DNA of 62,044 bases, filler included, from Dugesia japonica (lineage: Eukaryota), in the NCBI GenBank assembly GCA_001938525.1. It is 5 parts of 5 records of this genome, joined end to end, with 100 filler letters (N's around TTAATTAATTAA, not from the genome) between each part and the next. Parts side by side here need not be neighbours in the genome. Positions count along the whole stretch, not along the records: positions 32,917 to 53,102 come from MQRL01604510.1; 4 more parts are not named here. One strand, 5' to 3'. Position 1 is the stretch's first letter, and the number at the start of each line of letters is the position of its first letter. Made by a program: the position numbers and the translations under genes. The notes under the pieces are model-generated. The model did not search any database and was not told the DNA's origin. It saw nothing but the letters and a program-made list of their open reading frames with translations. This document shows, one piece after another, positions 31,311 through 62,044 of the stretch.

Positions 31311-31900
31311 CTTTTTGAGGATGAATGCTGGGCGTGTTCTATCCACTGAAACGCTGTTCAGTTTACCTTTTATAAGGTATTTCGTGTTCTTTGTCATCTT
31401 TGGAGTAGATAACGATGTCATCAATATAAGCAGAAGCAAAAGCTTGACAACTGTTTAGACACTTGTTCATNTGTCTTTGAAATATTTGTGATGCAAAAGG
31501 CCAAACGGTATGATTATTGCTGTTTTGTGCTTGTCTGAATCTTGGATTGCAATTTGGTAATAGGCTTTCCTTAGATCCAATGTGAAGAAAATATTTCATC
31601 ATTGATTCTGTCTAGTATGTCACTCATTCTGGGAAGTGGATATCTGCCTGGGTTTGATTTGCTTCATAATTAATGGTCCCAATCTTTGAGCACGTTGATG
31701 AACTTGTGGACCGTTGATGTATATTCGCAGCACCGTTAGGTATTCCGAGTTTAAAATTTCATTACTGTGCTGTCGTCTTTGAAAGATTCAATTGCTATGA
31801 CAATCTATTAAAAGGCGATGTTTTGACAAAAAAATCTGATCCCATTATTGGACGCTTGACATCTGCTACTGTAAACGTCCATTGAAATGTGGCTGTGGTA
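31311..31900 (-). mobile_element. Heavily deleted Ty3/gypsy pol remnant
   Basis: RT fragments LDLRKAYYQI and SQIFQR..SAYIDDIVIYS; integrase-tail motif VSVDRTRPAF. Confidence 0.75.
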
Positions 31901-32129: not shown

Positions 32130-32720
32130 ACATTCACTGGACACTTTTCAATTAAATATTTATTTACTCGATCCAATTGTTCTTAGTAAAGGTCCTGCAT
32201 TCACAATTTATCCAGGTTTCATAACTTCAAAATGAAATATTTCTCGAATACTCCGCCAAACACACAAAAACACCTTGAAATAATTTAAATCTGGCTTAGC
32301 TGTACTTCGTGGTGACTCATTCGGATAGATTCACTGCTATTTGCATTGTGGATTATCATAGAGGCGCCATTTTTCATCTCCAGTGGTCAAGCGATCAAAA
32401 AGCGCTTCTGTATTGCACCAATGAAGCAATAAGTTGCATGTGACGGATTGGTTAGCTTTGTTTTCATCGGACAGATTATGTGGCATCCAAAAACCAACTC
32501 TAATTAGGTGTTACTAATCTGCTGCAAATATTCTTGGATGGTCGACTAAGGTTTGTTAAGAGAATTTGACAAATCATCGATTGTCTGACACGGATTTGTT
32601 TTCACTTCCGTCTTTAACAAGTGAATAAAAAACCGTGAAAACTTGTTTGAAAGACGATATTGAAAGATAATAATTGCTTATTTTGTTTTACCGTGATGAC
32701 TGAAAAATGAAGAATATCAA
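32130..32720 (-). mobile_element. mariner transposase remnant
   Basis: Minus-strand WMPHNL (WVPHEL motif), TGDEKWRLYDN and PRSTAKPDL. Confidence 0.75.
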
Positions 32721-32916: not shown

Positions 32917-33490
32917 GAAGATGGTAAGTTTTTCTTACTGATAAATCTTAATGACCCTTGCTGTTTTCTTCTTAAATTTTCTTAACCGGATTCTCTCCGA
33001 CTTTTCTGACCGGAATTATTCACATAAAACAGATTTTACCTCAATTTTAATTAATTTTTTTGTTTAAGTAATTATTATTTTCATGCATTTATTTCTTCAT
33101 TTGATTTTTATTTTCTTTAATAATTCTAATAAATTTGTGATTACTATAATTAATCACATTGAATTTGATCTTCTAGGTTTCTTATTTAATATTATTATCT
33201 GGATTTTCCATTCTGGCTTTCTTCTGGTTCTTTAATTTGGTAATGTTTATTCGTGACCTCTTTTAACCTTGATAATCGTTCCTTTGGGTGTTTTGCCCCA
33301 ACAAATCGCTCTCCGTCTTGTTTAAATTCCGTCCCGGAATTTGCCATAGCTCCTCCCCNTTGCAGAAAATTCCTTATTAATAAAACTGACAGAGCAAGGT
33401 GAAATTTAAGGTCATTACATGCTATCTCATACCACATACATAAAAATTTCTACGTTATACATTCAAATACAATATACATTAAAGTTTACA
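32917..33490 (-). repeat. 3' LTR (partial) of the giant element
   Basis: Starts TGTAAAC on the minus strand immediately after a purine-rich tract; runs into the contig end. Confidence 0.65.
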
Positions 33491-33505
33491 GTTCATCCCC
33501 TTCAT
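33491..33505 (-). promoter_or_regulatory. Polypurine tract (ATGAAGGGGATGAAC)
   Basis: Purine-rich 15-mer directly before TG, ~50 bp after the last ORF. Confidence 0.65.
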
Positions 33506-33555
33506 TGATTTCCGATGGATAAATTACAGTTTATTTACATCGCGCTCAACTTGTT

Positions 33556-34710
33556 CTAATCGACTTCCTCTAGTAGACCGTCCTGGTCGCTAGCTCGTGG
33601 TTTGGAACCATATTTTCGTAATATTTCCGTTACGATTGACTGGGACAGGTTTCTCTTAAATTGGTTATGATTCCACACTGAGGTTCTACTGTGTGTTCGG
33701 CTGGGTGTTGCAGAACCGAGTTGTTTACTTTGGGGTTCTTGTATCACTAAAGGAACTGGCTTTCTGGGTTGATTAGGTGCTGAGATTATGTGCGGGACTT
33801 GATCAATTATTTTGTTTATCCATTCTGGTATTTTGGATTTAACTGGAGCTGACNTGGGTTCCTGGATTATTAACGGTGTGTATTGTCTTGGTAGACTGGA
33901 GATTATTGGTTGCCATTCTGAAGAGTCAGGGTTTAGTGTTGATTTGGGTAGATTAAGACTGATTAGATTCCTTGGGTGTGGTAGGATCGGTAGTGCTAAT
34001 GGATGAAAAATTGGTTGCTGAGCTATGTGCGCTTGCTGTAGTTCCTTAATGGTGGCAAATTGCTCGACTAACTGTTGTTGTTTTTGTTTCATCTCATCTT
34101 CTTTTCCATGGTAGAGGTTTCGCAACTCAATGATTTCCTGCTCCAGGGCTTCGATGTATTGCTGTAAGAATTCGTTCTTTTGCTGGTAATCTTGCATTAT
34201 GCTCTCGAATTCCAAGGACAATTTATTGATACCAGCTTGTACCCCTTCTCGATTGGCTAGGCTGGTTAGGAGTTGATTTTCGGTAGCCAGATGATTTCTC
34301 TCAAACTGCGTGTTAAACAGTTCCTATCTAAAACTGTGGTTATTTTCTTGTTCGACTATTAGTTGATTCTCGAGTAACTTTATTTTAGGTTTGACTTTCT
34401 CATATTTACCCTTCCAGCTTTGGGCTTGTTTGATAGCATTTATTTTCGCTCTATTGGCGTCGATATTGCTTTTTATGTATTTTTGGTGGGTTTTGCACGA
34501 TCGCTTCTTTATTTCTAATTCGTGACGTGCTTTTTCTATTTAACTCTCCAACTCGCTAATATATTTTTGCAATTGTAAATTGGATAGTACATCGATTTTG
34601 GATTCCAATTTCCATTTAAGGACTTCAGGTACGGTGGTGAGGGTTTGAGTTTGTATTTGTAAGATTTGAATCTCATTGCTGAGATGGTTTATTAGGTTTT
34701 CCACGTTCAT
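33556..34710 (-). pseudogene. Accessory ORF3: ~385-codon long coiled-coil protein with a Pro-rich C-terminal half
   Basis: ATG at 34710 is in frame with ORF 33556..34221 across two point stops; heptad-rich E/Q/K/L N-half; repeated PL(I/V)IQEP motif in the C-half. Confidence 0.75.
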
Positions 34711-34825
34711 TTCTAAAATAGGAGAGAGTGATTATTTTTAGTATAATAACATTTTGACAAATATAAGTATATATAATCATACATTATTTACATATTTAAC
34801 TTTATTTATTAATGAAATTTTATTG

Positions 34826-36050
34826 CTAATGCCCTTCGTTCCGACACATAGGGCATTCATTTAAGTTTGTAGCACAATTATAGCATGTTTTAAAATGCCC
34901 ACATGGCAGAAATACGACCTTGATGGTTTCTACAAGTCAGATCACGCAATCGTGATCTAGTAATATCCATTCTTGTTCATATTTTGCCCATGGTTTTACC
35001 GATTTGACTGAGTTTTGATATAACTCATATGGAGTGACTTTTTCAGACCCTTTTTCTGTGAACGTTTGTTTTATTAACTGTTTGGTATTCGTCCTATTTA
35101 ACTTTAAGATATTAGACAACCGGTTAATCTGTAAGTCAATTGCCATTTCTATTTGACTAAGCGACATATTTCATTCGATTCTGTATGCTGTTGTTTGTAT
35201 TTCTTCCTCGTTGATTGGTGTTAGTCTTGAATAATTTGGTTGATGGAATACTTTCTTTGGTAATTTCTCTATTCCTTGTAGTAGTAGAGTTTCTCGTTTG
35301 CAAGTGGCGCATTTGATAACTTTATCTCTGGTTTGCTGGACGAGATATAATCCTTCCATTGCTTTTCCTTCGAGATTTGGTATTTTCTGGAAGGTTTTTT
35401 CTTTTTCTTCGATATCCCATTCCAGATCCTCTAACAAGGCTACTTCTGCTAGGTTCTTTATGATTTTACAATATAGCTTCTTTGGTTCTATTGCTGTTTT
35501 CTCGGTTTCGGGTTTTCTTCCTTTAGTTAGTTGGGATTTGTTGTTTACATTTACATTTAGCAGGAATGGAGAGGTAGGAAACCTTTCCCTATGTGCTTTA
35601 TTGGGTTGTTCATTCATGCCCCATTTGTGTAGGATGCCTTGACAATATATACATTTTACTCCATCTGGTCGTTCTTGGGTGCAGAAGTAATAAAATCCGG
35701 ATTTGGCCATAGCCTCAATAAGTCCAGATAGATAGTTGGGCAATTTGNNNNNNNNNNNNNNNNNNNNNNNNNNNNNNNNNNNNNNNNNNNNNNNNNNGTT
35801 GGGCAATTTGGCGAGAGATTGCTTTCTTGCGTGTTCGTCCCGGTACTTCTCATCAAACACTTTCATTGTGCGGTAACACACCCTTTTACTGATGAAATTT
35901 TCCGGTGCCACAAATACGTTACGGTATGTTTTGTGTTATTGCGGTTTGCTTGATTTCCTCTCGTCCTCTGCTCATGACAAATGATTCGATATCGGAATCT
36001 TCCATCAGTAATCTAGCTTCCTGTATTGATACTTCGAAATTGAATTCCAT
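34826..36050 (-). pseudogene. Accessory ORF2: inhibitor of apoptosis protein (BIR, degenerate BIR, C3HC4 RING)
   Basis: BIR AMAKSGFYY..DGVKCIYCQGILHKW..P.KAH...P.SPF (35564-35827); second BIR-like unit EKTFQKIP..EGLYL..DKVIKCATC..H; after two in-frame TGA stops, CVI*LVETIKVVFLPCGHFKTCYNCATNLNECPMCR (34841-34948), an IAP-type RING. Confidence 0.92.
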
Positions 36051-36279
36051 TTTCTACAAGAGGTATATTATATAGCATTGTTATAGTATTTCTTGATTTT
36101 ATCCTTATGAAACATACTATATTACATAGAATACATATTTATTTGTGGGCTTTCTTATTTTAGATAGCATATATATGTATATATAACCGTATTATTTATT
36201 TATTTTATTCATTTATTTAGTTTATATATATATATATTATGATTATTAGTTTTTTTTAACTTCCTCTATCTCTTAGATT

Positions 36280-36840
36280 TCAGACAAAACTGACTTGGTT
36301 GTGGACACTCCGGGTCTTGAGTGTCTCGATTTCCCTCCTTTGTGAATTTACTACTTTTTTAAGATATTTTAGTTCTCTTGATTGATCAGAGATCAGATCG
36401 TGTTGTTTGGCTACTAATTCCATAGTATAATTTTGTTTTTCTGTGGTGATTTCCAGCATTTGTCGATTTTCTATTATTTGTTGTCGACACATAAGGGTTT
36501 CTGCGTAGAGATTTTCATTCTGGATTTGTAAGATTTTATTTTTGAATTCCAATTCGCACCAATCTACGGGTTTCGTTGTTATTAGGGTTTGTATTAATTG
36601 ATTTTGGTTGAGCTCCAGTTCTTCCAATCGTTGTTGGGTCCATTAAGTTTGGGTTCTAGCACTATTCCATAGTTCTTTAAATTCCTCGTTATGATTTTGC
36701 CAGATTTCATTTAACGTTGCTTGTGGGGGTGTATTGCTTTTAAGATTATTTAATAGAGAGAAATTTCTAGTGCATGACGGACTTACATCAGTTTGAGAGT
36801 CCATAACTTCATTTCCGATTGTTGCTTCTTTTTGGTTCAT
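36280..36840 (-). pseudogene. Accessory ORF1: ~186-codon coiled-coil protein of unknown function
   Basis: ORFs 36643..36840 and 36280..36627 are in frame across a single TAA; heptad-like C-half. Confidence 0.7.
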
Positions 36841-36942
36841 TTCTGAATGTGAAACATTGATTAACTTCGCCGTTGTTTTTGTCTATATACATATTGATAA
36901 GTATTTTACAATTTACATTATTTACAGGTAATTTTTCCTTAT

Positions 36943-38985
36943 TTAACATACCAATATACCCGGTGCCTGGTAGTATCCGGGCCCGTACATTGGTAATTCG
37001 TGAGGTGCGTTTCCTAGTGAAATTCCATAATAACTTGGTGGGGCGAATGGTAATTGTCGCTCCCGTCTGCTGCGGTGATGTTTCTTTTTCTTTGGTTTCG
37101 AAACACATAGACAAATAATGCTTATTATTAACACCGTAATAATAACTCCTCCAATACCTATCACATATCCTAATTCCTGACCTCTTGTTGATTGTACTGT
37201 GATAGTAGTTCTCCTAGGTTCTGTAGTGATTCTTCCTATGCTTTCTAGGTGATTCTTTCTTGGCTCAAATTTGCGTATATTTGACATCCAATTTTTCAGA
37301 AACTCCGCCCTTCTTACTTCCTTCTCATGGTTTTTTGTGGTGGTGGTTATCTGAGTTCCAATGGTAGTTGATAATTTAGGCGTGTGTGTGGACATTTTGG
37401 TGGTCTCCTTTTGTTTTCCTTTTGTTTTTGTTTTGATTACTATATATTGATTGATCACTGTGATGAATTCAAATCCCCATAATTCTTTGTCGAATTCCCC
37501 AATGCCCATTTCTTGGTACCTTTCCCCTCTCCAATATTTTTTACTTCCGAACTTCCATCCCCACTCGTAGAGATCTTTGATCGTATGTATTACCATTTGT
37601 TCCACCTTCTCCACAACCCGTATATAATACCTACGCTTAACTTTTTTCACTTGTAGTGGATATGGCCCCGGTTGCCAATATGGTTTCCATCCCTCCATTT
37701 CCTGATTTGTTATGGAATGTACTTCTCGACCTTGAGTGACTGTTATGCTTTTTTGACCTATTTCTTTTCCTTTTTTATTCCACACATCCGATTTGTATCG
37801 CATGTGCTGCCATATCATAGTATGGTAAAGGTATTCGTTTTTTGAACATATTTTCGGAATCTCATCTCTTGTATTCCTGGTTATCCATTTTTTGTACTTG
37901 AGGTTATTTTCCGAATAATATAGTACGAAGTTCATTTCTTGCTGGGGTTCAGATTCGTTACTTGCTTCGTAGACTAATGGATTCTTTTCATTTTTTAACG
38001 TTACGTCCCAGGTTTTTTCTATCTGCCACTTATTGATATCAAATGTCAATAGTTTTCCTACTATTGGTTCTTGGCTTAGGAATTGTATAATAATCCTCCC
38101 TTTTACTTGATGCAGTTTAATCGTAGTGCTTTTTTGGCTTTTGATTACTGGTGTTAGAATTAATTTTCCGTAACTATACAGTGCCTGGGTTCTCTGTTCC
38201 CTTCGCAGCCTTATATGACTTATTTTTATGACGTGTATTTTCCTTTCCCTGAGGAATATTCTGTGTTCTGTTAGGACTGGTTCGTTTACCTGGCATTCTT
38301 GTCCTCTGATTCCCTTTAGGATCATTATTATAGTTGTTAGTACGATTTGCCCACTGGGAATCTCGTTCTGAGTGGTTACTTGTACTTGCCGTATTGCCAA
38401 TGCCAGTAACGCGAGCCCAACCAGAATTATTCCGGTTAACCCATACAACATTAGTGACATAGGAAGTCCTCTTCCCATGTTTCCGTTTATTCTCATTGTC
38501 AGCCACGTTAATATACCATAATCCCAATTTGTGTTGATTACTGCCCATAACAACAGAGATATTTTAACTATTAATTCCATTTTATTCCTCTTCTCGCTTC
38601 TTTGCAATAGTTCCTTTTTTGATTTACCTGGTTCTGTTTGTTCCCCCTCATCCTGTATCCATATCATTTTCCTTTTCTTCGCCCTTCTGTGCGTTGTTTG
38701 GACTAATTGTCTTTCTCTTTCTTCCATTCCATCCCCTTGGCCCTGTAATTTTTCTCTCGTTGGTTTCCCTTGTTTTTTACACTCTTCGAGGGGATTTGCG
38801 ATAATGCTTGGTTCCGATTTTTTCCAAGTTACATTGCTTTGGATAGTTGGCATGACCATGCTTCCTGGCAATCGGGCTTCTAACGGTTCATATACTCTAA
38901 TCCAGTTCCATCGTACTAGCGTATGGTGAAATAGATGAATGGATTTTAACAATTCTTTGCTGTATACTTCGCACAAGATAAACAC
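36943..38985 (-). CDS. 680-aa membrane protein: three N-proximal hydrophobic segments, ~380-aa ectodomain with Thr-rich stalk, C-terminal TM, basic tail with PPSY
   Basis: Intact ORF; hydrophobic runs LIVKISLLLWAVI, LMLYGLTGIILVGLALLALAI, IVLTTIIMILKGIRG|Q; TM LGYVIGIGGVIITVLIISIICLCV followed by SKPKKKK; no recognised homolog. Confidence 0.8.
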   Translation of the reverse strand: MFILCEVYSKELLKSIHLFHHTLVRWNWIRVYEPLEARLPGSMVMPTIQSNVTWKKSEPSIIANPLEECKKQGKPTREKLQGQGDGMEERERQLVQTTHRRAKKRKMIWIQDEGEQTEPGKSKKELLQRSEKRNKMELIVKISLLLWAVINTNWDYGILTWLTMRINGNMGRGLPMSLMLYGLTGIILVGLALLALAIRQVQVTTQNEIPSGQIVLTTIIMILKGIRGQECQVNEPVLTEHRIFLRERKIHVIKISHIRLRREQRTQALYSYGKLILTPVIKSQKSTTIKLHQVKGRIIIQFLSQEPIVGKLLTFDINKWQIEKTWDVTLKNEKNPLVYEASNESEPQQEMNFVLYYSENNLKYKKWITRNTRDEIPKICSKNEYLYHTMIWQHMRYKSDVWNKKGKEIGQKSITVTQGREVHSITNQEMEGWKPYWQPGPYPLQVKKVKRRYYIRVVEKVEQMVIHTIKDLYEWGWKFGSKKYWRGERYQEMGIGEFDKELWGFEFITVINQYIVIKTKTKGKQKETTKMSTHTPKLSTTIGTQITTTTKNHEKEVRRAEFLKNWMSNIRKFEPRKNHLESIGRITTEPRRTTITVQSTRGQELGYVIGIGGVIITVLIISIICLCVSKPKKKKHHRSRRERQLPFAPPSYYGISLGNAPHELPMYGPGYYQAPGILVC

Positions 38986-39431
38986 AACTTTTTTAGGGTG
39001 GATTGCCGGATAAGTGCTTCAATTGGTAGTTCGATCCGTGACCCTTCACAATCTTTTTTGAACCAATGTTTTCGTCTCGATAACCATGCTTTCTGATCGT
39101 AAATAGCCTTCCACGTAATTTTTAGTATAATTTGTGTTTTCTTCACACATTGTGAACAGTTTCTTTCTAATTGCATTACTGACAGTTGGCATGTTACTTT
39201 TCTGATATGGGCACCATTCTCCTCTGTTCTAGGTGTTTGCATTCCTTGATATGTAATTGGATAGATTGTAGTAGCGCTCATAGCTTCTATCATAAGTGGT
39301 CTACGCATTTGGTTACCTGAATTGAAAGACAATGTATTAGCCCTTTGATTCATAACAATTTCTTTATTATTAGTTAACGACGCACTTTGCCGTATCTGCT
39401 GGGATTGGATATTACTTGATGTATGTTTGAT
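38946..39431 (-). pseudogene. Post-integrase linker region with Cys pairs (CSQC, CLSC)
   Basis: In frame with the integrase tail across one TGA at 39432; overlaps the 680-aa ORF in another frame. Confidence 0.55.
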
Positions 39432-41324
39432 TCAACCTCTTTTACCAGTTTGTTTTATCCCAGAAATACTCGGTGAGGTATTTATGATTGTACTACCTTC
39501 CTTAGTTTTTCCTTGGTTGATGGTTTGTCTACAAACATTCATCTTTAATACCTTAGTTATCTTTTGTAATTCTGTTTCCGTTCTTACTGTATTTGTAGCA
39601 GGTAGACTCGTTTCTTGTTTTACTTTTTTCTCTTTTCCCGTTAATAATCCTTCCCCGTTTTCTTCAAACTCAGCGTCCTTGCTGAGACTGTTTTTCTTTA
39701 CCACTGTTTCCCTACTCCATGGTGAAGGATTTATTAGTAGTTTACTATTTACCGCCATGGCTTTTTGTGACCGTAATGGATAACTGTGTGATATATTTGC
39801 TTCCATTCCTTTCGACTTCCGTGGCCGCCCTGGCCTTCTACGGTCCGTCGTAGTGGGCTCGATGCTTGTGGTTGGTGCGGCTTCTTCTGTCATCGCCGCC
39901 TTTTTACACAAGTTGGCGTGGTATATCTTGGGCTTCTCTAGTAGGTTCCCTTTTTTCCGAACATTGAGGTTAGTTTCTGTTACTTCGATTACTTCATACG
40001 GTTCTTGCCATAGTCTTTTTAATTTTGATGTCGTACCGACAAAAATATCTGGTAAATTGATAATTACCATATAGCCTTTTTTTAAAGGAATGTTGCGCCG
40101 CTGATTTGTCATGTAGTTCCTTGTAGCTTTCCTGGTAGAAACCTACATTTTCTTTGGCTTGTTTCCATATTTTCTGCATGGTCTCATTTAAATTTGCAAC
40201 AAAACCCGTTTCATCTTGATATTGTGTTATCGTTGGTTGGAATTCCAAATCAATAGGCATGTTGCGTTCCCTGCCATACATAAGACCGAATGGAGTGTAT
40301 TTAGTTGCTGGGTGCACACTCATCCGATATGCAAATAGGCATAATTGAATATGCTTATCCAAGTTGTTTTGTTCCTTCTGCGCGTAACTATACAACGTAT
40401 TGATCAGGGTTTTGTTAAACCTCTCCGTTAATCCATCCGTTTGCGGATGATATGGTGATGTCCGTAGTTGGTGTATTTTGAGAAAGTTCGATATTTCTGC
40501 TAATATATTGCTCATGAAATTTTTTCCTTGGTCGGTCAATATTTTCTTCGGAGTGCCGTATCTGCTGAAGAATTTTCGTACCAAAATGTCTGCTTTTGTG
40601 GTCGCTTTCTGATTCTTCATCGGAAGTGCCTCTGGGAATTTGGACAGATAATCCATTATGGTGAGTATGTAGATATTTCCGCTTAGGGTTGGTGGTAATG
40701 GTCCAACTACATCCATAGCGATGATTTCCATTGGCGCCGCTGGTACCGCAATGGGTTTTAATAACGCTTTTACTTTTTTCCTGTTCCTCGTCTGGCAGCA
40801 CATATCTGACATTTAGCAATCCATTCCTTCACTGATTCTGTCATGTGAGGCCAGTAATATTTCTGTCTTAATTTGGATTCAGTTTTNNNNNNNNNNNNNN
40901 NNNNNNNNNNNNNNNNNNNNNNNNNNNNNNNNNNNNNNNNNNNNNNNNNNNNNNNNNNNNNNNNNNNNNNNNNNNNNAACCATCCTTTGGTAAGTGCATA
41001 ACGACCGCCATTCTTCTTTAGGTGTTCCTTCATCTTGGGTTCACATTCTAACTTTTCCAAATTATAACTTTCCATATATTTTATAATGATCTGGATCTCC
41101 TCGTCGTCAGCCTGCGCTTGTTTTAACCCATCGAAATTTCTATCTTCGGCCAATATAAAATATACCATACCAACTATTTTCTCCAATAACTCCCTGAATG
41201 TAAATGTTTCTGTAACCTCGGGTGCGTTCTCCGTGGCTTCTGGTCCACCGATCCTTGATAGAGAATCCGCATTTGAGTTGGCTTTGCCTGTTTTAAATTT
41301 TAATAGCGGACAATAATCTTGCAT
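39432..41324 (-). pseudogene. Integrase (zinc-binding, DDE core, SH3-like GPY/F region, AT-hook tail)
   Basis: KYYWPHM..CQIC; IAMDVVGP, LTDQGKNF, YHPQTDGLTERFN; LWQEPYEVIEV..HANLCKK; RRRPGRPRK; frameshifts near 40790 and 40080. Confidence 0.95.
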
Positions 41325-41333
41325 TGCTAGTTG

Positions 41334-41819
41334 CTATTTTGCCATTCTGTTCCAACGTAACGGTTTCTGAGCCATAAAAGTGATTGGTAAGTGATCCGTA
41401 TAGATAAGTACTTCGTGCCCATGTATAAGTGATCGAAAATGTTTAGTGGCTTTTACAATAGCCATTATCTCTCGTTCTGTGGTGCTATAATTTAGTTCTG
41501 CTCCTTGGAATTTCTTGCTAAAATATGCGATTACTCTTTCTCTTCCTTGTTCATCTAATTGACTCAACACTGCACCCATCGCGTATCCACTAGCGTCGGT
41601 GGCCAATATAAATGGCTTCTTGAAATCTGGGTGTACCAAAATGGGTGCCGTTAATAATTTATCTCGTAATGTCTTGAATGATTGCTGTTGCTCTGGACCC
41701 TATATGAATGCAGTATCTTGTTTGACCAGTTCTTGCATCGGCTTCGCAATTTTTGCGAAATCCTTGATAAATTTACGATAATAATTTGCGAGTCCTAGAA
41801 ACTCCTGTATTTTGAGTAC
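41334..41819 (-). pseudogene. RT connection and RNase H
   Basis: QEFLGLANYYRKFI; FILATDASGYAMGAVL; NYSTTERE; IYTDHLP. Confidence 0.95.
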
Positions 41820-42700
41820 TTAATTTGGTGGTGCTAGATTTCGTATCTTCTCTGTATTTCGCGGATTCGGTTCTTTGCCTTTATCCGATATTAAATGGCC
41901 TAAATATGTTACTTTATTCTTGGCCCATTCGCATTTGGTGGGTTTCACTTTTAGATTCCATTTACGTAACCGTACAAACACACTACGCAAGTCATTAAGG
42001 TGCCCATCAAAGGTTGGCAAATAGATAAATAGATCATCAATATAGGCAATACATTGAGATATGCCATGGGTTACATAATTCATCATCCGTTGGAAAGAGG
42101 CTGGTGCATTAGTAAGCCCGAATGGCATACGGATAAATTGGTATAAGTCCTTGCCTGTGGAAAAGGCCGTTTTCTGTCTATCTTCTGGTTTGATCTTTAT
42201 TTGCCAATAACCGCTTCGCAAATCTAACGTAGTGAATATTTTAGCATTACACAATAATTGCAATAATTCGTTGATATCTGGCAACGGATAAGTATCCTTT
42301 TTCATTTGAGCATTTAATCTTCGGTAATCAATACAGAATCGTTGTGTCCCATCTTTTTTATCTACTAATATCACTGGTGACTGCCATGGNGAGCAGCTAG
42401 GTTCTATCACACCGATTTTCACTAATTTAGCTGTTTCCTTATTTGCGAATTCCTTTTTCTCCACAGTCATGGCGTATGGTTTCTGTTTACATGGCGTTTC
42501 ATCCGTTAATGGAATTGTGTGCATTTTTGCGAGGCACATACCCAACTCTTCATCCGCCCATGCAAAAATATCTCGGAATTCTTCCAGCAGTTGCAGTATT
42601 GCTTGTTTTTGTTCTTCTGACAAAGTTTCCGTTTCTACTTTGAACGTTCTCTCGATTTCCGGTTCAGCGGCTACTTCTTCCATCACTTCGGGCTCTGATT
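41820..42700 (-). pseudogene. Ty3/gypsy reverse transcriptase
   Basis: RFCIDYRRLN, LDLRSGYWQI, MPFGLTNAPASFQ, YIDD, YLGH. Confidence 0.97.
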
Positions 42701-43384
42701 CGATGAGTTTAGCGTGCCCATTCTGGAGTTTGGTCTAATTGTGATATCTTTTTCTGTAAAATTAACTAAGCTAACTGGTACTTCCCCACTTTTGTTGACC
42801 GTGGTTATTCCTCCTGCCGTTTGTAGCTCGTACTGGTGTGCAAATCCGTCATATGGTTCGAAATAACAATCTCCTTCATAGGCACTTTTTGTACTGACTA
42901 CACAATATACTTGGCATCTACTAGGTACCACAATTTCTTCTTTAGTAAATACCTCGTGATCCTTTACATGGGTATAACCTTCCAATGATTGTAACCGTAA
43001 TGTTGAGAAGTTTAATATGCCATTTTTCATCAGGACGGGAAGAATATCCGTTCCCAATATACACTGTCCCATCATTTCCACTATGATCATATTGTGTTTA
43101 ATTCTGTTATCTTGATATTCGACTTCACAGGCTAATTCTCCAAAAATTTTGAGACTACTACCATTTGATACATCTGCTGTAGTGTTAGTGAGTAAGATAA
43201 TTTTATATTCGGTTATCGCGATTTCATCTATCGACAGCATTGATATGGTTGCTCCGGTGTCCACTAGGGCTGTTATGGGTCGGCCGTTGATTTTATCTAT
43301 AATGGTTAATACTGGTCCGCCATTGAGACTTGTGCATACTACATCTGAAGGGTTATGACTGGAGTTTGTTGGTATTTTGTTTTT
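42683..43384 (-). pseudogene. Aspartic protease 2 followed by a beta-rich spacer
   Basis: KINGRPITALVDTGATISML..CILGTDIL; in frame with the upstream ORF across one TGA at 43385. Confidence 0.9.
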
Positions 43385-44680
43385 TCATCTTGGTTCTCGT
43401 TCTTGAAACCTTATCCAATCGTCCCTTATTAAGGTATTGATATTAGTGATTTTCTGAAGGTCTTGGTTCGAATTGTTTTGTTCATTTCGGGCAGTTGGCT
43501 GCTGTCTCAGCCGGTTGGGCGTTGGCTGATTCCATTGTTGTGGTCGTTTCTGTTGGGTTATCATACGAGTTTTCTGATATCCTACCGGTGCATACTCTTG
43601 ATCATAGTTTTCTCGTATCGTTAGTTTTCTCAAGTCCAATATTCCCTTTGGACAGAGGCGTGGTAAGAGGTCCAATCCAAAGAGACAGTCGAATGTTAAT
43701 TCGTTCATTATTTGAGGTTTATGCCAGAAACGGATTCCATCGCTTTCTATCGCACATATTGCTTCTGCCGCGGGTGAGATTTTTTCTCCAGAGGCCGTGA
43801 TGATAACTCCTTTGATTATTGTTATTCTGAGTAGTCGATAATCTTCTAGTATTCTTTTATGGACTAACGTCGTACTTGCTCCTGTATCAATAATNNNTAT
43901 TACCCATCTTCCGTCGATTTTTATTCTTTTTTGTAGTAATTTTGCTTTCTGGGAAATCATCATACATACGGTCTGGTTTTCTAATTTGTCATCCTCCGTT
44001 ATTTGATTATTCGGGGAGCGCAGATTTTGCTCGGTCACTCTTCTGTCCATGGTTGATACATTGTTCTCTGTTAGTAGCGCCATATTAGGGGCTTGTGGTG
44101 GGCTTATATATGGATTGCTGTACATGGGACATGGTGCCCATACTTGTTGGGGTGGTTGGTTCATGGGATGCCAACCATGTTGCGGATAAGCGTTATAATA
44201 CATTTGTGCTGGTGCTGGCGTGCTTTCTCCTCCTCCGAATTTTAACGCATTTTTCAGTCGTTGCATTTTGCTGATCTTTTCGTATTGCTGCCTTTTGAAT
44301 TCTGCATCGTATTCCATGGCAGTTTTATAACTAGGTACATGAGGCGTTCCACTGCTTTCTCCTCTATCATCGTCGCTGCTACTACTACTTTCATCTTTGT
44401 TTTTAAACCTTTCTTTGAATTGGTTAAAATATGATATTTTCTTTATGCCCATTTCTTCGCATAACAATTGGAGTTGCATTATGACTTCCTTGTCTGATCC
44501 TCTTATTTGTCCGAGCTTCCGAATGAATCTCTTTACCCTGTCAATATCCTTGGAGTGACTATTAAGCACCACAGGCTTGGCTAAAAATGGAAATATTCCC
44601 GTTACCATTTTCCAATTCACCTTCTTCTCTCTTTTGTATATATCAAAACATGCGAACAATTGATTAATTACTACTCGTGT
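43385..44680 (-). CDS. Glycoprotein cytoplasmic region, Pro/Gln-rich linker and aspartic protease 1
   Basis: Same uninterrupted ORF (43385..44761) as the glycoprotein TM; IKIDGRWVIxIIDTGASTTLV..DCLFGLDLL. Confidence 0.88.
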   Translation of the reverse strand, partial: TRVVINQLFACFDIYKREKKVNWKMVTGIFPFLAKPVVLNSHSKDIDRVKRFIRKLGQIRGSDKEVIMQLQLLCEEMGIKKISYFNQFKERFKNKDESSSSSDDDRGESSGTPHVPSYKTAMEYDAEFKRQQYEKISKMQRLKNALKFGGGESTPAPAQMYYNAYPQHGWHPMNQPPQQVWAPCPMYSNPYISPPQAPNMALLTENNVSTMDRRVTEQNLRSPNNQITEDDKLENQTVCMMISQKAKLLQKRIKIDGRWVIXIIDTGASTTLVHKRILEDYRLLRITIIKGVIITASGEKISPAAEAICAIESDGIRFWHKPQIMNELTFDCLFGLDLLPRLCPKGILDLRKLTIRENYDQEYAPVGYQKTRMITQQKRPQQWNQPTPNRLRQQPTARNEQNNSNQDLQKITNINTLIRDDWIRFQEREPR

Positions 44681-46404
44681 TACTGAAATTATCAGCATAA
44701 CTCCCAACAATCCTGCTATTGCTTGTCCAAATATGATGAATCGTCCCCACATTTTCCGCATTACGTTTTCTGTGGCCTTTTGTAAGTGATCTGCTGAAAA
44801 TAACGCATCTTAATTCACTCGTCCATCTATGTTAGTTCCACTGGTTAATTGCACTATGTTGGATAAGATTTGCATCCTTCGGACTGGAAACAGCATGTAT
44901 TCCCTGGCTTTCTCCAGATCTTCCCTGCTGTAAATTCCTCCTTTATTTACGTCAATTGGAGTGAATTGCATACCCCCATTCAATCGTAACATGGAGAATT
45001 TCCGTGGTTCGACTCCCACTGCCATTCGTTGCGGAAATCGTATCCATGGACCATCTATCATTATGTATTGTGGTCCAAATACATTAGAGCAATTTATGAT
45101 ATTTGGCCTATAACCCAGTGGTGATATGATTCGAGTAATTGGTTGCACGTATCGTTTCTCGTTATTATGGATAATTTCTATTTCATTGTAGCAGTTTTTG
45201 GGATACAACTAGAACTCGGCATCTAGGGCCTTGCATTTGTATAGGTACATTACTTCTCCTACTACTCGACCGAATTGTCCTTTTTCCAGAGGAAGTAGTG
45301 GAGTGACCCTATCTGGGTTTGTAACTGCCATTGCTAATTTGGTCTTTAATATTTCTTTATTTAATGTGCAGTCATTTTGAATAAGATCGTGGTACATTCG
45401 TCCGATGGTATCTTGCATTCGGTGAAATATATTGTCCAGTTTATTATTGGTATAAAGATGCAATTTGATATCTTGTGACATTTCTGCTGCCTGTGCCGTC
45501 TTTATCCGATGTTCTGACACGAATATTCCTTTGTAATTTGTTTTATACACTATTTGCCCACACTTGGACATCGAATTTCCCTTAATTAACCGGATGGTCT
45601 CATCCTGCTCTGAGGAATTAACACTGTAGGAGTTGTGTGCCATTGCTGGTCGTATATTCTCGGGCCGGACCGTGTTGTTTCTTTGAGATTATCTATCCTA
45701 TCTTTTAGATTACCCTCCTTTGGGGTTTGATCGATCGGTGTTAAAGCTCGTTGTCCTTGATATTCATTGAACATTGCCTCTTTTAGGTGGGCTAGCTTAC
45801 AGTCCTGGTGATCTACTTTGTATGTCAATGTTGATGTACCTGCATTACAGGATCCATCGGCCGCCTTGCAGTATGACCTCCCTTTCATAGTCAGATCTTG
45901 AGCGTCAAAAAATGCTTCGTATTCCTTAAGCTCCACTGTATACGTTTCAATTGCTACCAAGTATGACCATACCTCTCCCCAGATGGTGTATGTACCATAT
46001 TCGCAGTGGCCTTTATGTGAAGATATGCTTCCTGCTGCTTCTATTGGTTGATCAATCACATGTCCTTTCTTGGCGATGACTTGAGTTCTATGTTTGATGG
46101 TGATCTTTCCTGTAGTAAATCCTTCATCGCATTGTTGTCCGGTTAAATGTACGGGGTGTCTCACTGTTCCTGGATCAATTATTGAAGTGTAGCTGTGGTA
46201 CCCACAATGAAATATAAACGTTTTTACCGCTACCGTACACTCACATACTTGGGCCTTATAATAATCTGACTCCTGATATCAGTGGTACACTGAATTATTA
46301 CGGAGTGAAATTTTCTCCGGATTTGCGTCTGGACATTCCTCGGTATCCACTAATGAGAATACCTCTTTCCTAACTTGCATCCCATCGCAATCATATGCTA
46401 CGAT
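44681..46404 (-). pseudogene. Env: chuvirus/Monjiviricetes-like class III fusion glycoprotein (ectodomain and TM)
   Basis: After a signal-like helix: IVAYDC..FSLVDTEEC..YQ..VCECTV..FHCGYHSYTS..C..G..C; later KCGQIVYKTNY, NKLD, C.LNKEILKTKLA, GEVMYLYKC, CYNEI..YVQP.TRII, C...FGPQY, GGIYSREDLE, then TM FIIFGQAIAGLLGVMLIISV. Three point stops and one frameshift (~45615). Confidence 0.85.
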
Positions 46405-46650
46405 GGCTTCATTTCTGCACATCATTAAGAATAACACGAGTATTGCGGTGATTAATGCTTGCCAAGAATTTCCTCGAGGCCCACGTGTCCAACCATTCTC
46501 GATCTCATTTAATTGTTCTCGAACAATCCTTATTACTCTGGTTGCATTTTCATGTGATGGCTGTGTCTTAGGGCATATGGCCTCAACAAATTTTTTCCAT
46601 CCTCCTTGTTGTTTTATCAACGGTGCGATTTTATTTTGCATTAGATCCAC
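46405..46650 (-). pseudogene. C-terminal fragment of a Bcl-2-like domain (BH2) and hydrophobic anchor/signal peptide
   Basis: IAPLIKQQGGWKKFVE matches the BH2 pattern WIxxxGGWxxFV (L codon TTG is one change from TGG); hydrophobic WQALITAILVLFLMM ~40 aa later. The rest is lost at the 46650 junction. Confidence 0.62.
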
Positions 46651-47883
46651 TATCGGTAATTTACTAAGAATGAAGTTTTTTGACCATAGTGAACTAATAA
46701 TTGGAGAAAGAGAAAATAAATTAAAAGAATTAATTAAATTAATTGATGAAAGAAAAAACGACGAACTTAAATTAATTTCAGATCAGAAAAACAAAGAAAT
46801 GAACATAATTAATATTTAAGAAGAAAATAAAATAAATAATTCATTTAATTAAATAAAATAAATCGTACTAATTAAAATGATTTATTTTTAAAAGAAAACT
46901 AAACATTTTGTGAAATATGGCAAAAACGACGGCTTCCCAAGATGGAAAAATGAGCAATTAAGAAGATTATGGTCAAGAAAAAATCGGAGAGTTTNAAAAT
47001 TTAAGTTAAAAAATCATAACAAGACTCAGAAAGAAGATACAAGGGTTTGAAGATGGACCAATAATTTTGGAATCCTAAAATATCCACCAATAAAATGAAC
47101 TCACGTTCAAGCCAATGGAAACGTCAGAAAGATCGTACAATTCCAAATAACCAATGAAAGAAATGGGGGTGTAAAGAAAAACAGTATAAATACCGTTTCA
47201 ATTTCAGACGAAACGGATTTAAAAAAAATTAATCCTTAAGTGACAATCAATACTCAAACCGAACCTCGACAAAACAAAAAGCAATATTAATCAATCTTAG
47301 TTATTGGAAAATTCACTGAAATCAAGAATCTCAACGGTAATTATTTATCCATATGAAATTTGGGTGCAACAATTTCCGACTGGAAGATGAAAAATTATGG
47401 AGGACCATTAGAATCGTTACTGGCTACCAATATGTTGTCAATTCACGTGCTGTGCTTGCTCCGGATCGGAATTCAGTCTATGTTAGTTATATTGATTGTT
47501 GTAATTATATGCTTAATTATTAATAACTGAAGTTTGTTAATCTCAATATATTTTTCACTTACAAACTCTTTTGTTTTTATGATAATTAATCTCCTAACTA
47601 ATGAAATTAAAAATAACTAAGATTAATCAGATTAATAAACACTCCATAAACTGGAAATTTTATAAGAAAACGATAAATATGGGTCTTAAGTTAAGCCAGT
47701 ATCATGAAGTACGAACTTAAACTACAGGAATGCGAGTCTGTACTCGAACTACGAGTCAACGGCTCCATTCCGAAGATCTGGATTTTTGGGGACTCCAAAT
47801 TAAATTCTTCGCGGGGTTTTATTAGGCTGACCATCCTGGACTTAATTATTAAAACCTCAACCCACCTAGACAAAACCCCAACA
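46651..47883 (+). repeat. Solo-LTR-like element (~1.23 kb) that truncates the giant element
   Basis: Abrupt shift to A-rich non-coding sequence; termini TATCGG..CCCCAACA; CCAAT boxes (~47112, ~47151) and TATAAATA (~47185); 3' 180 bp similar to 50670-50848; no matching TSD. Confidence 0.55.
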
Positions 47884-53202: not shown

Positions 53203-53817
53203 GATTCAACTTTTGCAAATTTACAATAATTTCCAGTGCTGCAAATATTAATTATTAGCAAATAAAGTTAGTCAATCAAACTTTAGAAATAATACATTAA
53301 TAACGTTTGAAAATCAATCAACTAATTCTAACCTTTTTACTTATAAATCCAGTTATTTTCTAATAAAGATTTACTCGTATTTTATATAATTATATCATCA
53401 ATTTTATACATGCATTATTGACTAGAACAAGTAATATTATCCATAAATTATCCAAAATATCAAATCTATAAAATAATATAAAACATGAAATCTATACATG
53501 TTATTTTAACAACTAAATTTATAAGCATTCTTTGAAATCATTTTACCATTAAAAATTCACTTACTGTTTGCAGGTATTATTTTAGATTTTCGAAACTTTT
53601 ATAAAACACGATCATACTTTAATAGTTTTAAAAAATATCAATTTAATGCTTTGTAATAATTAAATTTATTATAAAGAGCACTATTAAAACAAATTATAGA
53701 GAATTAATTTATTATTTACTAGTTCCAGCTTAACTATTTCTGATGTTTTCATTAATTAATTACATTTTTGGTACAAATTGATTTTATTACAATATATTAA
53801 TTGATTAATTTTTAATA
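53203..53817 (+). repeat. Left arm of a ~615-bp near-perfect inverted repeat (partner 61431-62044)
   Basis: GATTCAACTTTTGCAAATTTAC.. at the contig start is the reverse complement of the last bases of the window; identity continues for ~615 bp. Confidence 0.95.
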
Positions 53818-53896: not shown

Positions 53897-56800
53897 TGTC
53901 GCAGTTTCAAAAGTTCCGTGAAAATATTTAGAAAATTTTTAGAAAAAGCTACAAGTTTTTACAATTTTCATGTGAATTTTTATATTAATGATTCGAGGAG
54001 TTTTCCAAACTCTCCTAACATTGGTGGCAGCAGTAAACACTGATGCAATCTCAGAAAAGTTGTTGCCAAAAATATTTTGCAGAGGCGATGATCTAGAAAA
54101 GTTTATTAAACGGTGTGAAATATACTTTGAGTCAAAGAACATCGCTGTTACGATAATCACGAACGTTGGGTGATATTTATGCTTCATGAAAATTTAATGG
54201 AAGCATACGTGAAGACATTGAAGAAAGCTGATTGATATTGAGAGAGATTGCGATTAGCTTTTAAAAGCAAGAGATGCATAATAAAGGATTTATAGAATCT
54301 TGTAAGCTATCAACATGGTGATGAAGAAATTGAGGTGTATTTTACAAAGTGGAAGATTAAGTCGATGAATTTTTAGCAAATGGAGAGTTGACGAAAAACT
54401 CTTATCAAAAATGCTAATTATTTGTGCAAATAGTAAAAAAGCAAAAGCGCTTATCATGCGAAAATTGGAGAAATTAGAAGATATAAAAGAAACTTTATCA
54501 TTAGATGAAAAAATAGAAAAAAGAGAACCTATTTATGTAGTAAAGAGTTACGCTGGTATAACACGTTGAAAACGTTTCAGAGAAAGGAGGCAAAATACTG
54601 AAAATGTTACAAAATAAAGAGACCTAAATTATTGGACATGCCAGAGTTATGAGCATACAAAAAGAGAGTGTCCAAAAATTTCTCATGTGGAATGTTGTAC
54701 TTTTCACAAGAAAGGGGCATTTAAGTAAAAATTGCATAGACAAGAAACCAACAAGATGTTATGGGTGTGATTAGATTGGTCATATCACAATAATGTGGAC
54801 AGAAATTGTGTGTGGTAGATGTAAAAGACCGGGTCACAGAGCAGAAAAATAATATTCGAACAATAATAAACCTAGACTAGAAGATAGAAGATACAATTTT
54901 AAAAGCGGACAAGAAACAAAAGATTGGAGTCGGACAAAACCAATTCATGCTATTTGAGAAGAATTTGATGATGAGAATGAAGAGAGATTTTCTGAGAGTA
55001 TAATAGAAAATGACAATCCAAGAAGAGAATAACCAAAAAGTAGGGCTACATTAGTAGAGGAGTTGTTCGGAGCTATTCATTAAAACGAGTTACCGTTTGA
55101 ATATCCTCAAGAGACCGAGAAATGGAATGAGACGAGTAAAATTGGAGAAAAAGTTTACAGATTCTTAAAAAGAGAAAGTTTTAATAATGTGGAAATTAAC
55201 AAAGCAGAAGTGATAGGAATAATTGAAGAGAAACAGAAGGTAGAAATTTCGTGTGGAAAAATGCAAAGGAGACCTAGCATTTCAGTGATGATCAAGGGTG
55301 AATAGTTTGATTGTTTGTTGGATACAGGAGCAAGAATAATTGTGATGAGCATGAAAGGATTTAATAGACTCGGAGAAACAATGTTAGAGAAAAGCGATGA
55401 ACGATTGCATTTCTTGAATAACAGCTCTTTGGAGATAATTGGGAAGATGCGTGTCGAAGTTATAGTTTCAAAGGTGTGCAAGGAAGTAACATTTATAATA
55501 GTAGAGAAATTAATACCAAATTTAATTGGTTGAGTAAAATTTCAGAATACTTTTAGATATCATCTTCAAAAAACGTGCAGAGTAGACATCAATAATCATC
55601 GAGAAATATTTNTTTGCAATATTGAGGCAAAATTTGGAAGGCAGATACATACGGTTGAACGATTGAGACATCCATTGAAGATTCTAGAAATTAACAAAGA
55701 TCATATATTGACTGCAATTTTTAAGAATAATGAGAATGTATTTTTGTCGGATAAATGGGAAATTGGATCCACACACTTAACGAAGCATCGAATAATCACT
55801 AAAGAAGGTCCAATCAACATAAAAACGTATTGCCAACCAATGAATCTAGATGAGAAGATTAAAGAGGCCATTAATAATTTATATGATAATGGTATCATTC
55901 GGGAGTGTAATTCTCAATGGAATACGCCATTAATCTGTGTTTGGAAAAAGGAAAAAGAAAAATATAGGATTATGCTTAGACTTTAGACAGCTCAATGCAA
56001 TAACAGAAAGACAAGCTTTTCCTTTATTGAATGTGGACGAAATGCTAGATGCTTTGGAAGGTACGCGGTATTTTAGCTCAACAAACTTGGGAAATGCATA
56101 TTTTTCAGTGGACCTCAGTGAAAATTCTCAGGAAAAGATGGCTTTTACGACTAAAAAAGACAATTTTGTTTCAATAGAATGCCTTTCAGAATTGCAGCAG
56201 CACCAGGTAAGTTCCAGGAAATGATGATTAAAGTAATCGGAAAAATAAAAGGAGCGATAGTTTATCTAGATGATATTCTCGTATTTGCCGAAACAAAAGA
56301 GCAACACTATGAAATAATCAATAAAATATTAATAGAAATTAAGAAGGGTGATCTAAGAGTTAATCCTGAGAAATGTCAATTCATGCAAAAGGAGATCAAC
56401 ATTTTANNNNNNNNNNNNNNNNNNNNNNNNNNNNNNNNNNNNNNNNNNNNNNNNNNNNNNNNNNNNNNNNNNNNNNNNNNNNNNNNNNNNNNNNNNNNNN
56501 NNNNNNNNNNNNNNNNNNNNNNNNNNNNNNNNNNNNNNNNNNNNNNNNNNNNNNNNNNNNNNNNNNNNNNNNNNNNNNNGGCCAAGTAACAAGAAAAATG
56601 AATGGTCAAATGAATTAGAAGAAGTTTTTAATGAAATGAAAGAAGCAATAATGATGTCTTCAATATTATGTTTTCCAGATATAAATATAGGATTTATTTT
56701 TGACACGTATGCGAGTTTCGATACGATGGGGGCAGCATTATCTCAAAAAAACAACAAGGGGCAAGAAAAAGTAATTTCATATGGGTCACACGCAATGGGG

Positions 56801-57442
56801 AGTCATGAGAGAAGTTATTGTAATACACGAAAAAAATTGCTCCCAATTTACTACTTTTGTATTCATTTCAAGCACTACTTATTTGGGAAGAGATTTATCA
56901 TCAGAACAGACCATAAAGCCATCACTTTTATGCTAAATACCAAGAAGCTGATAACATCACAGTTTCAAACTTGTATTAATTATATGAGCAATTTAGATAT
57001 AAAATTGAAATATAGAAAAGGATCGCTTCATAAAAATTCGGATATGTTGTCAAGGAAGGAATGCGGTACATGTGCACAATGTCCAATGTTACATGAAGAA
57101 TCCAAAAGTGGAAAATTAAAAACAAGGATGTTAATTACAGTAGATATTCAAGAGAAACAAGGCAATTTTGGTGAGAATGATGAAGGGACATGGATACATG
57201 ATAATAAAGTAGAAGACGTTATAATGAGGATACACCATCTTTTGTGTCATGCTGGAGCATAAAAAGTTGCAGCGTATTTGAAGCATAAGTATAACGCGAA
57301 TCATTTGTGCAGCAAAGTACAAGAGGTTGTTCGAAGCTCTATAAAAGGCAAGAAAGCTAAAGTGTTTTAAACAAAAACGAAGGAAGAAACAAAAAAGACT
57401 CAGTCATCTGAAATGTTTGAACTGTTATTTATAGATGTGTGT
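53897..57442 (+). mobile_element. Compact Ty3/gypsy element, decayed, truncated in the integrase
   Basis: ..AACA then PBS-like TGGTGGCAGCAG (~54022); gag with about four CCHC-like knuckles (54630-54850); CLLDTGA; LDFRQLN, YLDD; RNase H (RTDHKA); integrase H..L.H and FIDVC, where it stops. Confidence 0.9.
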
Positions 57443-59080: not shown

Positions 59081-59299
59081 ATCGAGAGAAGAAGAAAATA
59101 AAAAATTATTTTATGAATTACCTGGAGATGAAGCAATTGATTTTGAAAAGAATGAAACAAGAAAATTATTTAAACATTTAAAAAATATAAAGTATTATAA
59201 ACTTGAATATTTTAAAGAAAGTAAAATTGAATTAACTAGAAATGTAAAAATTAAATTTTAAATTAATAACTTGGTTTAAATAAGAAATTACTAAAATTG

Positions 59300-61430: not shown

Positions 61431-62044
61431 TATTAAAATTAATCAATTAATATATTGTAATAAAATCAATTTGTACCAAAAATGTAATTAATTAATGAAA
61501 ACATCAGAAATAGTTAAGCTGGAACTAGTAAATAATAAATTAATTCTCTATAATTTGTTTTAATAGTGCTCTTTATAATAAATTTAATTATTACAAAGCA
61601 TTAAATTGATATTTTTTAAAACTATTAAAGTATGATCGTGTTTTATAAAAGTTTCGAAAATCTAAAATAATACCTGCAAACAGTAAGTGAATTTTTAATG
61701 GTAAAATGATTTCAAAGAATGCTTATAAATTTAGTTGTTAAAATAACATGTATAGATTTCATGTTTTATATTATTTTATAGATTTGATATTTTGGATAAT
61801 TTATGGATAATATTACTTGTTCTAGTCAATAATGCATGTATAAAATTGATGATATAATTATATAAAATACGAGTAAATCTTTATTAGAAAATAACTGGAT
61901 TTATAAGTAAAAAGGTTAGAATTAGTTGATTGATTTTCAAACGTTATTAATGTATTATTTCTAAAGTTTGATTGACTAACTTTATTTGCTAATAATTAAT
62001 ATTTGCAGCACTGGAAATTATTGTAAATTTGCAAAAGTTGAATC
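61431..62044 (-). repeat. Right arm of the ~615-bp inverted repeat
   Basis: Reverse complement of 53203-53817. Confidence 0.95.

What the first reader, a model, noticed from the sequence alone, without database searches (positions are those of the whole stretch)
32917..46650. Giant gypsy element built like an enveloped virus: fusogen, second membrane protein, two proteases and two classes of apoptosis regulator
Seen: one co-oriented minus-strand unit of at least 13.7 kb (gag and 5' LTR missing) holding a BH2-like segment, class III-like glycoprotein, PR, PR, RT, RH, IN, a 680-aa membrane protein, a coiled-coil ORF, BIR-BIR-RING, another coiled-coil ORF, PPT and LTR. Established: ordinary Metaviridae are gag-pol, with env downstream when present, while IAP and Bcl-2 captures are typical of large DNA viruses (baculo-, herpes-, pox-, asfarviruses). 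Inference: an infectious retrovirus-like lineage that suppresses death of the host cell. Giant gypsy elements called Burro are described from planarians and I recall accessory or anti-apoptotic domains being noted in them, so novelty must be checked; the envelope architecture is the part I do not recognise as described.
Basis: partly seen in the sequence, partly recalled or inferred. Interest (0 to 1): 0.93.

Follow-up and report, generated by a model that had tools for sequence, protein, structure and literature searches.

The report
Decayed Burro-type enveloped giant retrotransposon
This is a broken, truncated copy of a giant virus-like jumping gene, likely from a flatworm, whose main layout (cell-death regulators plus a viral fusion protein placed ahead of the copying enzymes) is already published; the extras not found in the papers read are a doubled protease and a second predicted membrane protein, both seen in relatives and untested.

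Summary
The observation largely holds. On the minus strand (about 46,655 to 32,917) lie a Bcl-2 BH2 remnant, a gB-type class III fusion glycoprotein, two aspartic proteases, a dUTPase-like domain, RT, RNase H, integrase, a 691-codon membrane-protein frame, coiled coils and BIR-(degenerate BIR)-RING. The copy is dead: 7 stops and 4 frameshifts in the polyprotein, 5' part lost, 3' end at an assembly gap, so the LTR is unverified. It is not a chimera: intact relatives are collinear in one frame. Not found in the papers read: 2-4 protease domains in 8 of 16 relatives (7 in one further member), and a membrane protein after integrase in 9 of 9 relatives reaching that far. The window's own membrane protein matches none of them. 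The scan noted this family and the second surface protein before on other DNA (e1-8073080, e1-9041064). Verdict: new variant of a known kind, interest 0.35.

The parts
46570..46659 (-). Remnant (BH2 helix with GGW) of a Bcl-2-like domain; the rest is lost at the 5' break
   Evidence: skew flips at about 46.6-46.75 kb
46405..46461 (-). Predicted internal signal sequence of Env
   Evidence: hydropathy 1.98; same position in relatives
44520..46404 (-). gB-type class III fusion glycoprotein with C-terminal membrane anchor (about 44,737-44,681); 3 in-frame stops and 1 frameshift
   Evidence: Pfam PF24664; fold of relative P0025; profile hit to gB E 0.0014
43631..43930 (-). Aspartic protease 1 (DTG kept)
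43007..43303 (-). Aspartic protease 2 (DTG kept); groups with the single protease of the closest relative P0169 (97/89)
42719..42910 (-). dUTPase-like domain (weak)
   Evidence: Pfam PF00692 E 4.6e-4, below cut-off; same position as in Burro
41895..42362 (-). Reverse transcriptase (YIDD)
   Evidence: RVT_1 E 6e-35
41340..41696 (-). RNase H
   Evidence: RT_RNaseH_2 E 3e-38
39880..40889 (-). Integrase (zinc-binding part next to an assembly gap, core, C-terminal part); 2 frameshifts
36943..39018 (-). 691-codon open frame: predicted signal-like segments, about 375-aa ectodomain of unknown fold, membrane anchor (about 37,164-37,108), short tail with a PPSY motif
   Evidence: no homolog or family found
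36280..36882 (-). Coiled-coil-type ORF 1, one internal stop (coiled-coil call by eye)
   Evidence: no Pfam match above chance
34826..35935 (-). IAP-like gene: BIR, degenerate second BIR, RING; 2 internal stops and a 50-N gap
   Evidence: homolog P0172 32% over 98% of the query
33556..34731 (-). Coiled-coil and proline-rich ORF 2, two internal stops (coiled-coil call by eye)
33350..33361 (-). Candidate polypurine tract (unverified)
32917..33349 (-). 3' non-coding stretch with the element's base skew, possible start of the 3' LTR; cut by a scaffold gap
   Evidence: no second copy

Best explanation
This is a dead, 5'-truncated genomic copy of a GAG-ENV-POL gypsy retroelement of the Burro type, likely from a planarian, whose intact relatives encode Gag, a Bcl-2-like domain, a gB-type fusogen, one to seven proteases, RT, RNase H, integrase and a further predicted membrane protein in one reading frame. 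Shown: the domain order, its collinearity with intact relatives, the gB fold on a relative, the Bcl-2 and IAP homology, and the decay of this copy. Inferred mechanism for the active form: the polyprotein is threaded through the ER membrane; signal peptidase at the internal signal sequences would free Gag-(Ubl)-Bcl-2 in the cytosol and leave Pol hanging on the cytoplasmic tail of Env; the protease domains would cut Pol loose, a tandem pair plausibly acting as a built-in dimer; the fusogen plus the fast-evolving second surface protein (likely attachment) would let particles enter neighbouring cells such as stem or germ cells; Bcl-2-like and IAP proteins would delay death of the producing cell.
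For: Collinear tblastn of 9 of 9 relatives tested over the domains they hold; P0169 runs from Bcl-2 to integrase and is RT sister to the window, 55% identity, support 100/99. Single-frame intact relatives P0003, P0169, L001, L003, P0176, P0178; P0178 also has ankyrin repeats and L002 a ubiquitin-like domain, as Burro does. Published layout. By eye the window's Env N-half resembles Smed_errantivirus_5 and _6 most among the 6 flatworm rows. Uniform A-rich skew over pol and accessory genes, A 39.5% against 39.7% in L001. AT-rich repeat-laden flanks fit an animal host.
Against: No Burro sequence could be compared directly, so membership rests on architecture. Gag, LTR pair, PBS and target-site duplication are absent or untestable. 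No relative was seen with a BIR gene: none in polyproteins over 1000 aa by a motif scan, and L001 has an exonuclease and coiled-coil ORFs after the polyprotein instead; P0172 has no genomic context. No ankyrin match in the 16 window frames scanned. The closest relative has one protease, so tandem proteases are not required. The 691-codon frame matches 0 of 9 relatives' ectodomains and 2 more only weakly or not at all (5 and 29 of 200 shuffles). The BH1 motif is degenerate in relatives, so anti-apoptotic activity is not given. Host and expression were not determined.
Confidence: 0.85

Rival explanations
1. The Bcl2-Env-Pol core is one element, but the IAP and coiled-coil genes (33.5-36.9 kb) belong to a different element or captured host DNA lying next to it.
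For: No fetched relative shows a BIR next to this pol; 0 of 22 accessory-region frames hit loci L001-L003; no second copy or LTR pair to bound the unit.
Against: Same strand, no introns apparent, same skew (-0.30 to -0.35 against -0.22 in pol) and GC 35-39% against a mostly 20-30% flank; similar decay; BIR is a published Burro cargo; no gap or repeat junction between 39.9 and 35.8 kb.
Confidence: 0.08
2. The element moves only inside cells; Env and the second membrane protein are vestigial or serve immune or signalling roles, and extra proteases are neutral duplications of a sloppy polyprotein.
For: Protease number varies from 1 to 7 and post-integrase ectodomains are not alignable between lineages. 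No particle evidence turned up in the listing. Reverse-transcriptase inhibitors or BURRO1 RNAi did not rescue smedwi-2 animals (PMC8532177 passages), which says little for a host-level role.
Against: Env cysteines and fold are conserved across 91 aligned sequences; all detected protease copies keep D[TS]G (partly by construction of the profile); a post-integrase membrane protein is present in 9 of 9 relatives reaching that far.
Confidence: 0.25
3. The 691-codon frame has been domesticated by the host, which is why it alone is still open.
For: No stop over 2.07 kb, while the polyprotein has 11 lesions in about 6.7 kb; about 3 would be expected (my arithmetic, P near 0.03-0.07).
Against: The frame was picked after the fact; a 474-codon open stretch also survives inside the dead polyprotein; no homolog in 5.8 billion clusters; no expression data.
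Confidence: 0.05

Closest known systems
Burro-1 to -4 / GYPSM1 giant gypsy-like LTR retrotransposons of planarians (PMC6431247, section 7 read whole; Grohme et al. 2018 and Jurka 2007 not held, known only through it)
   Same: BCL2-like domain, then mononegavirus-like Env, PR, dUTPase-like, RT, RH, IN in one polyprotein; BIR cargo; accessory ORFs; decayed fragments with stops and frameshifts reported for Dugesia japonica.
   Different: The text read names one PR and no membrane protein after integrase; here two PRs and a 691-codon membrane frame. No ankyrin found in the window; Gag, MATH and Ubl would lie in the lost 5' part. Figure 2A and the Burro sequences could not be seen.
Platyhelminthes GAG-ENV-POL HSV/gB-type errantiviruses, Smed_errantivirus_1-6 (PMC13524379; abstract, passages, section 5 part 1, supplement rows)
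   Same: Env before Pol; gB-type class III fusogen; Env domain visibly alike, most to Smed_5 and _6 (by eye).
   Different: Word searches of the main text found 0 'Bcl', 0 'accessory', 1 'protease': no Bcl-2, IAP, extra proteases or second membrane protein discussed in the passages seen.
Chuvirus/mononegavirus glycoproteins and herpesvirus gB
   Same: Pfam PF24664; best predicted-structure matches are chu-like virus glycoproteins (E 4e-44) and best solved matches are gB.
   Different: Here the fusogen is an internal domain of a retroelement polyprotein.
Cellular and baculoviral IAPs (cIAP1/BIRC2, XIAP, NAIP) and Bcl-xL
   Same: BIR and C-terminal RING; BH1-BH2 region similarity.
   Different: Second BIR degenerate, gene broken; Bcl-2 domain fused ahead of Env and lacking a canonical BH1 in relatives.

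Membership tests
Ty3/gypsy (Metaviridae) LTR retroelement | Pol order PR-RT-RH-IN | tested here: met
Ty3/gypsy (Metaviridae) LTR retroelement | Gag, paired LTRs, PBS, target-site duplication | tested here: inconclusive
   5' part lost at a break near 46,655, 3' end at a gap; relatives have Gag
GAG-ENV-POL HSV/gB-type errantivirus (PMC13524379) | Env upstream of Pol | tested here: met
GAG-ENV-POL HSV/gB-type errantivirus (PMC13524379) | Env of gB (class III) type | tested here: met
   profile containing the window's N-half hits gB E 0.0014; fold of relative P0025 matches gB E 2e-13
GAG-ENV-POL HSV/gB-type errantivirus (PMC13524379) | RT placed in the Platyhelminthes clade | not testable with these tools
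Burro/GYPSM1 | BCL2-Env-PR-dUTPase-RT-RH-IN in one polyprotein | tested here: met
   collinear, now broken; in one frame in P0169 and L001
Burro/GYPSM1 | BIR cargo | tested here: met
Burro/GYPSM1 | Ankyrin, MATH, Ubl, Smc-like cargo | tested here: inconclusive
   no such Pfam match in 16 window frames; 5' part missing; ankyrin in relative P0178 and ubiquitin-like in L002
Burro/GYPSM1 | Giant size (internal region up to 25 kb, over 30 kb with LTRs) | not testable with these tools
   13.7 kb remain; no whole genome is held
Burro/GYPSM1 | Sequence kinship with Burro-1 to -4 and planarian host | not testable with these tools
   Burro sequences not available; host inferred only
FN3-like post-integrase surface proteins of relatives | FN3-like repeat in the window's 691-codon frame | tested here: not met
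   150 of 200 and 243 of 300 shuffles score as high, while the same profile finds P0176 and P0178 tails at 0 of 300

The most novel reading that the evidence does not exclude
These elements are complex enveloped retrovirus-like agents that split entry between a class III fusogen and one or more separate, rapidly replaced surface proteins cut from the same membrane-threaded polyprotein, with repeated active-site-intact aspartic proteases (up to seven) that process each cytosolic segment or work as built-in dimers: a polyprotein strategy not described for Ortervirales in the papers read.
Probability: 0.35. Interest if true: 0.65.

Novelty: new variant of a known kind. Interest (0 to 1): 0.35.

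Why it matters
The headline features are in print, so this copy adds little by itself, and it is dead. The residual value is at family level: repeated proteases and a second surface protein after integrase recur across distant relatives and were not found in the two papers read or in searches. If real and functional, they would show a retroelement processing a multi-membrane polyprotein like an RNA virus and using a separate attachment protein, and they give concrete tests of how Burro-type elements spread among planarian stem cells. Figure 2A of PMC6431247, Grohme et al. 2018 with its extended data, and Repbase entries were not visible and may already show these features.

Tried and rejected
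No whole genome is held, so copies, LTR pairs and target-site duplications could not be collected. Grohme et al. 2018 is not held. Expression was not tested. The 691-codon frame: no homolog among 7136 candidates; no Pfam match under E 0.07; no BLASTP match to P0003 or P0169; single-sequence AlphaFold pLDDT 33.8, not used for a fold search; no look-alike in the scan's notes; the ESM Atlas did not complete (7 tries). FN3 identity of that frame rejected. FN3 identity of relatives' domains is only suggestive: best PDB profile hits fibronectin E 0.2, IFNAR2 0.24, no fn3 Pfam match in 5 of 5. No LTR-like repeats in L001 or L003. Weak dUTPase hits on the Env N-half (E 0.001) rejected as chance, since the region is PF24664. 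The protease tree is mostly unresolved (7 of 28 branches starred); no order of duplications is claimed. The protease profile was seeded on D[TS]G motifs, so motif retention is partly circular; Pfam independently shows several protease stretches in P0003, P0018, P0023, P0029, L001, P0176, P0178. A second structural search of the P0025 model was not obtained.
Full report
Observation. The window is AT-rich, gap-laden, repeat-rich DNA of animal type. From about 46,655 down to 32,917 the minus strand is a distinct unit: GC 31-41%, and an A-rich sense strand in 27 of 27 500-bp windows, a level reached by 6 of 95 windows outside. Pfam on 16 minus-strand frames gives, in order, a Monjiviricetes fusion glycoprotein in five pieces, two aspartic proteases, a weak dUTPase-like domain, RT, RNase H, integrase and BIR; a RING follows. 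The 691-codon frame at 36,943-39,018 has four hydrophobic segments, the last a strong membrane anchor. The copy is dead: 7 in-frame stops and 4 frameshifts between the Bcl-2 remnant and the integrase tail, 2 stops in the IAP, and stops in both coiled-coil frames. The 5' end is a sequence break, not a gap. The 3' end runs into a scaffold gap about 430 bp after a candidate polypurine tract, and no second LTR copy exists in the window, so 'PPT and LTR' is unverified.

Domain identities. A profile of 91 Env sequences, the window's N-half among them, hits herpesvirus gB at E 0.0014. A model of the intact relative P0025 (39% identical to the window's Env C-half) has mean pLDDT 84.6 and matches gB in the PDB at E 2e-13 and chu-like virus glycoproteins in BFVD at E 4e-44. 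The window keeps only the last helix of the Bcl-2-like domain; 6 relatives carry the longer domain in the same place, P0025 has a sub-threshold Pfam Bcl-2 match, and the 7-row profile matches Bcl-xL over BH1-BH2 at E 2e-4 (rows were anchored on GGW). The IAP matches cIAP, XIAP and NAIP structures and one full-length homolog, P0172 (32% over 98%), which has the same degenerate second BIR and no genomic context.

Relatives. Searches with the Env-PR-PR stretch gave P0003 and 873 proteins at E up to 0.001, 150 listed; I scanned 18 of the best and longest and looked up cluster members of 18 proteins. A profile scan of metagenomes gave 3 loci. Nine relatives were laid on the window and all nine are collinear over the domains they hold. 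P0169 (4,099 aa) is the RT sister of the window (55%, 100/99, 10-row tree) and has Bcl-2-like, Env, one PR, dUTPase-like region, RT, RH, IN and two membrane proteins in one frame. So the core is not a chimera. Protease domains: 8 of 16 relatives have 2-4, 8 have one, several of those being partial sequences; two further members of already counted clusters have 2 and 7. After integrase, 9 of 9 relatives that extend that far (P0003, P0018, P0020, P0034, P0169, P0176, P0178, L001, L003) have a signal-like segment, an ectodomain and a membrane anchor in frame (hydropathy for four; by eye for five); P0051 ends within integrase and was left out. In one sub-lineage these ectodomains share an FN3-like repeat: a 7-segment profile finds it in P0176 and P0178 at 0 of 300 shuffles, though the FN3 label itself is weak (E 0.2). 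The window's ectodomain does not have it and matches 0 of 9 ectodomains pairwise; its fold is unknown. No relative was seen with a BIR; L001 carries an exonuclease instead. That the IAP belongs to this element rests on strand, composition, shared decay and the Burro literature.

Mechanism. Shown: order, homology, decay. Inferred from topology and general knowledge of signal peptidase and retropepsins: the intact polyprotein crosses the ER membrane several times; signal peptidase would separate Gag-Bcl-2 from Env and Pol from the second membrane protein; Pol would be tethered to Env's tail at the budding membrane and released by the element's proteases. Retropepsins work as dimers (established knowledge), so tandem copies could form a built-in dimer or serve separate cytosolic segments; the closest relative manages with one, so this is optional. 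The gB-type protein would fuse, the variable second protein would likely bind receptors, and Bcl-2-like and IAP proteins would likely delay death of the producer cell. None of this was tested.

Comparison with print. PMC6431247 section 7 (read whole) describes Burro/GYPSM1: BCL2-like, Env with hits to mononegavirus fusion glycoproteins between BCL2 and PR, dUTPase between PR and RT, BIR, ankyrin, the integrated-provirus hypothesis, meddling with apoptosis, and decaying copies in Dugesia japonica. PMC13524379 (abstract, passages, section 5 part 1, supplement rows), a lead from note e1-8073080, reports GAG-ENV-POL gB-type errantiviruses in flatworms; by eye the window's Env is closest to Smed_errantivirus_5 and _6. 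PMC8532177 (passages) shows BURRO1 is transcribed when SMEDWI-2 is lost. Repeated proteases and the post-integrase membrane protein were not found in those texts or in the listings of searches; Grohme et al. 2018, Jurka 2007, Sacco et al. 2022 and all figures were not seen and could contain them. The scan itself noted a post-integrase FN3-type surface protein elsewhere in this genome (e1-9041064) and multi-kilobase LTRs with small genes (e1-9268182, not checked here).

Verdict. It works like a Burro element and meets the testable architectural criteria; formal membership awaits an RT tree with named Burro sequences. New variant of a known kind; interest 0.35, carried by the family-level extras and not by this copy.

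Noticed in passing
L001:10617-12107: A related element carries a 496-codon ORF with an RNase_T/DEDDh-type exonuclease domain (E 1.4e-5, above cut-off) after its polyprotein, where the window has an IAP: the 3' cargo differs between lineages.
   Followed up: partly
L001:2-10282: This polyprotein has two membrane proteins with FN3-like repeats, one inserted between protease 2 and protease 3 and one after integrase.
   Followed up: partly
protein P0178: 4,844-aa polyprotein with 7 protease domains (5 before RT, 2 after integrase), ankyrin repeats and C2H2 fingers.
   Followed up: partly
protein P0169: Closest relative has two tandem post-integrase membrane proteins related to each other (0 of 200 shuffles) but not to the window's.
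   Followed up: partly
protein P0020: An NCBI record of a relative is labelled Flavobacteriaceae MAG; likely animal DNA binned into a bacterial genome.
   Followed up: no
window 53203-53812 and 61435-62044: 610-nt perfect inverted duplicate, one arm beside a scaffold gap and one at the window end; likely an assembly artefact or a terminal inverted repeat.
   Followed up: no
window 55670-57060 (+) and 31384-31663 (-): Two further decayed gypsy RT/RNase H fragments unrelated in position to the main element.
   Followed up: partly
window 58049-60770 (+): Broken frames with C2H2 fingers and, by eye and recall, a Polinton/Maverick-like stretch.
   Followed up: no
window 7417-7797 (+) and 32340-32510 (-): Fragments that look like a non-LTR element's zinc knuckle/endonuclease end (zf-RVT E 0.011) and, from recall of the motif, a mariner transposase (no Pfam match).
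   Followed up: no
window 46652-46816 (+): A short coiled-coil-like frame on the opposite strand abuts the 5' break; probably another decayed repeat that replaced the element's 5' part.
   Followed up: partly
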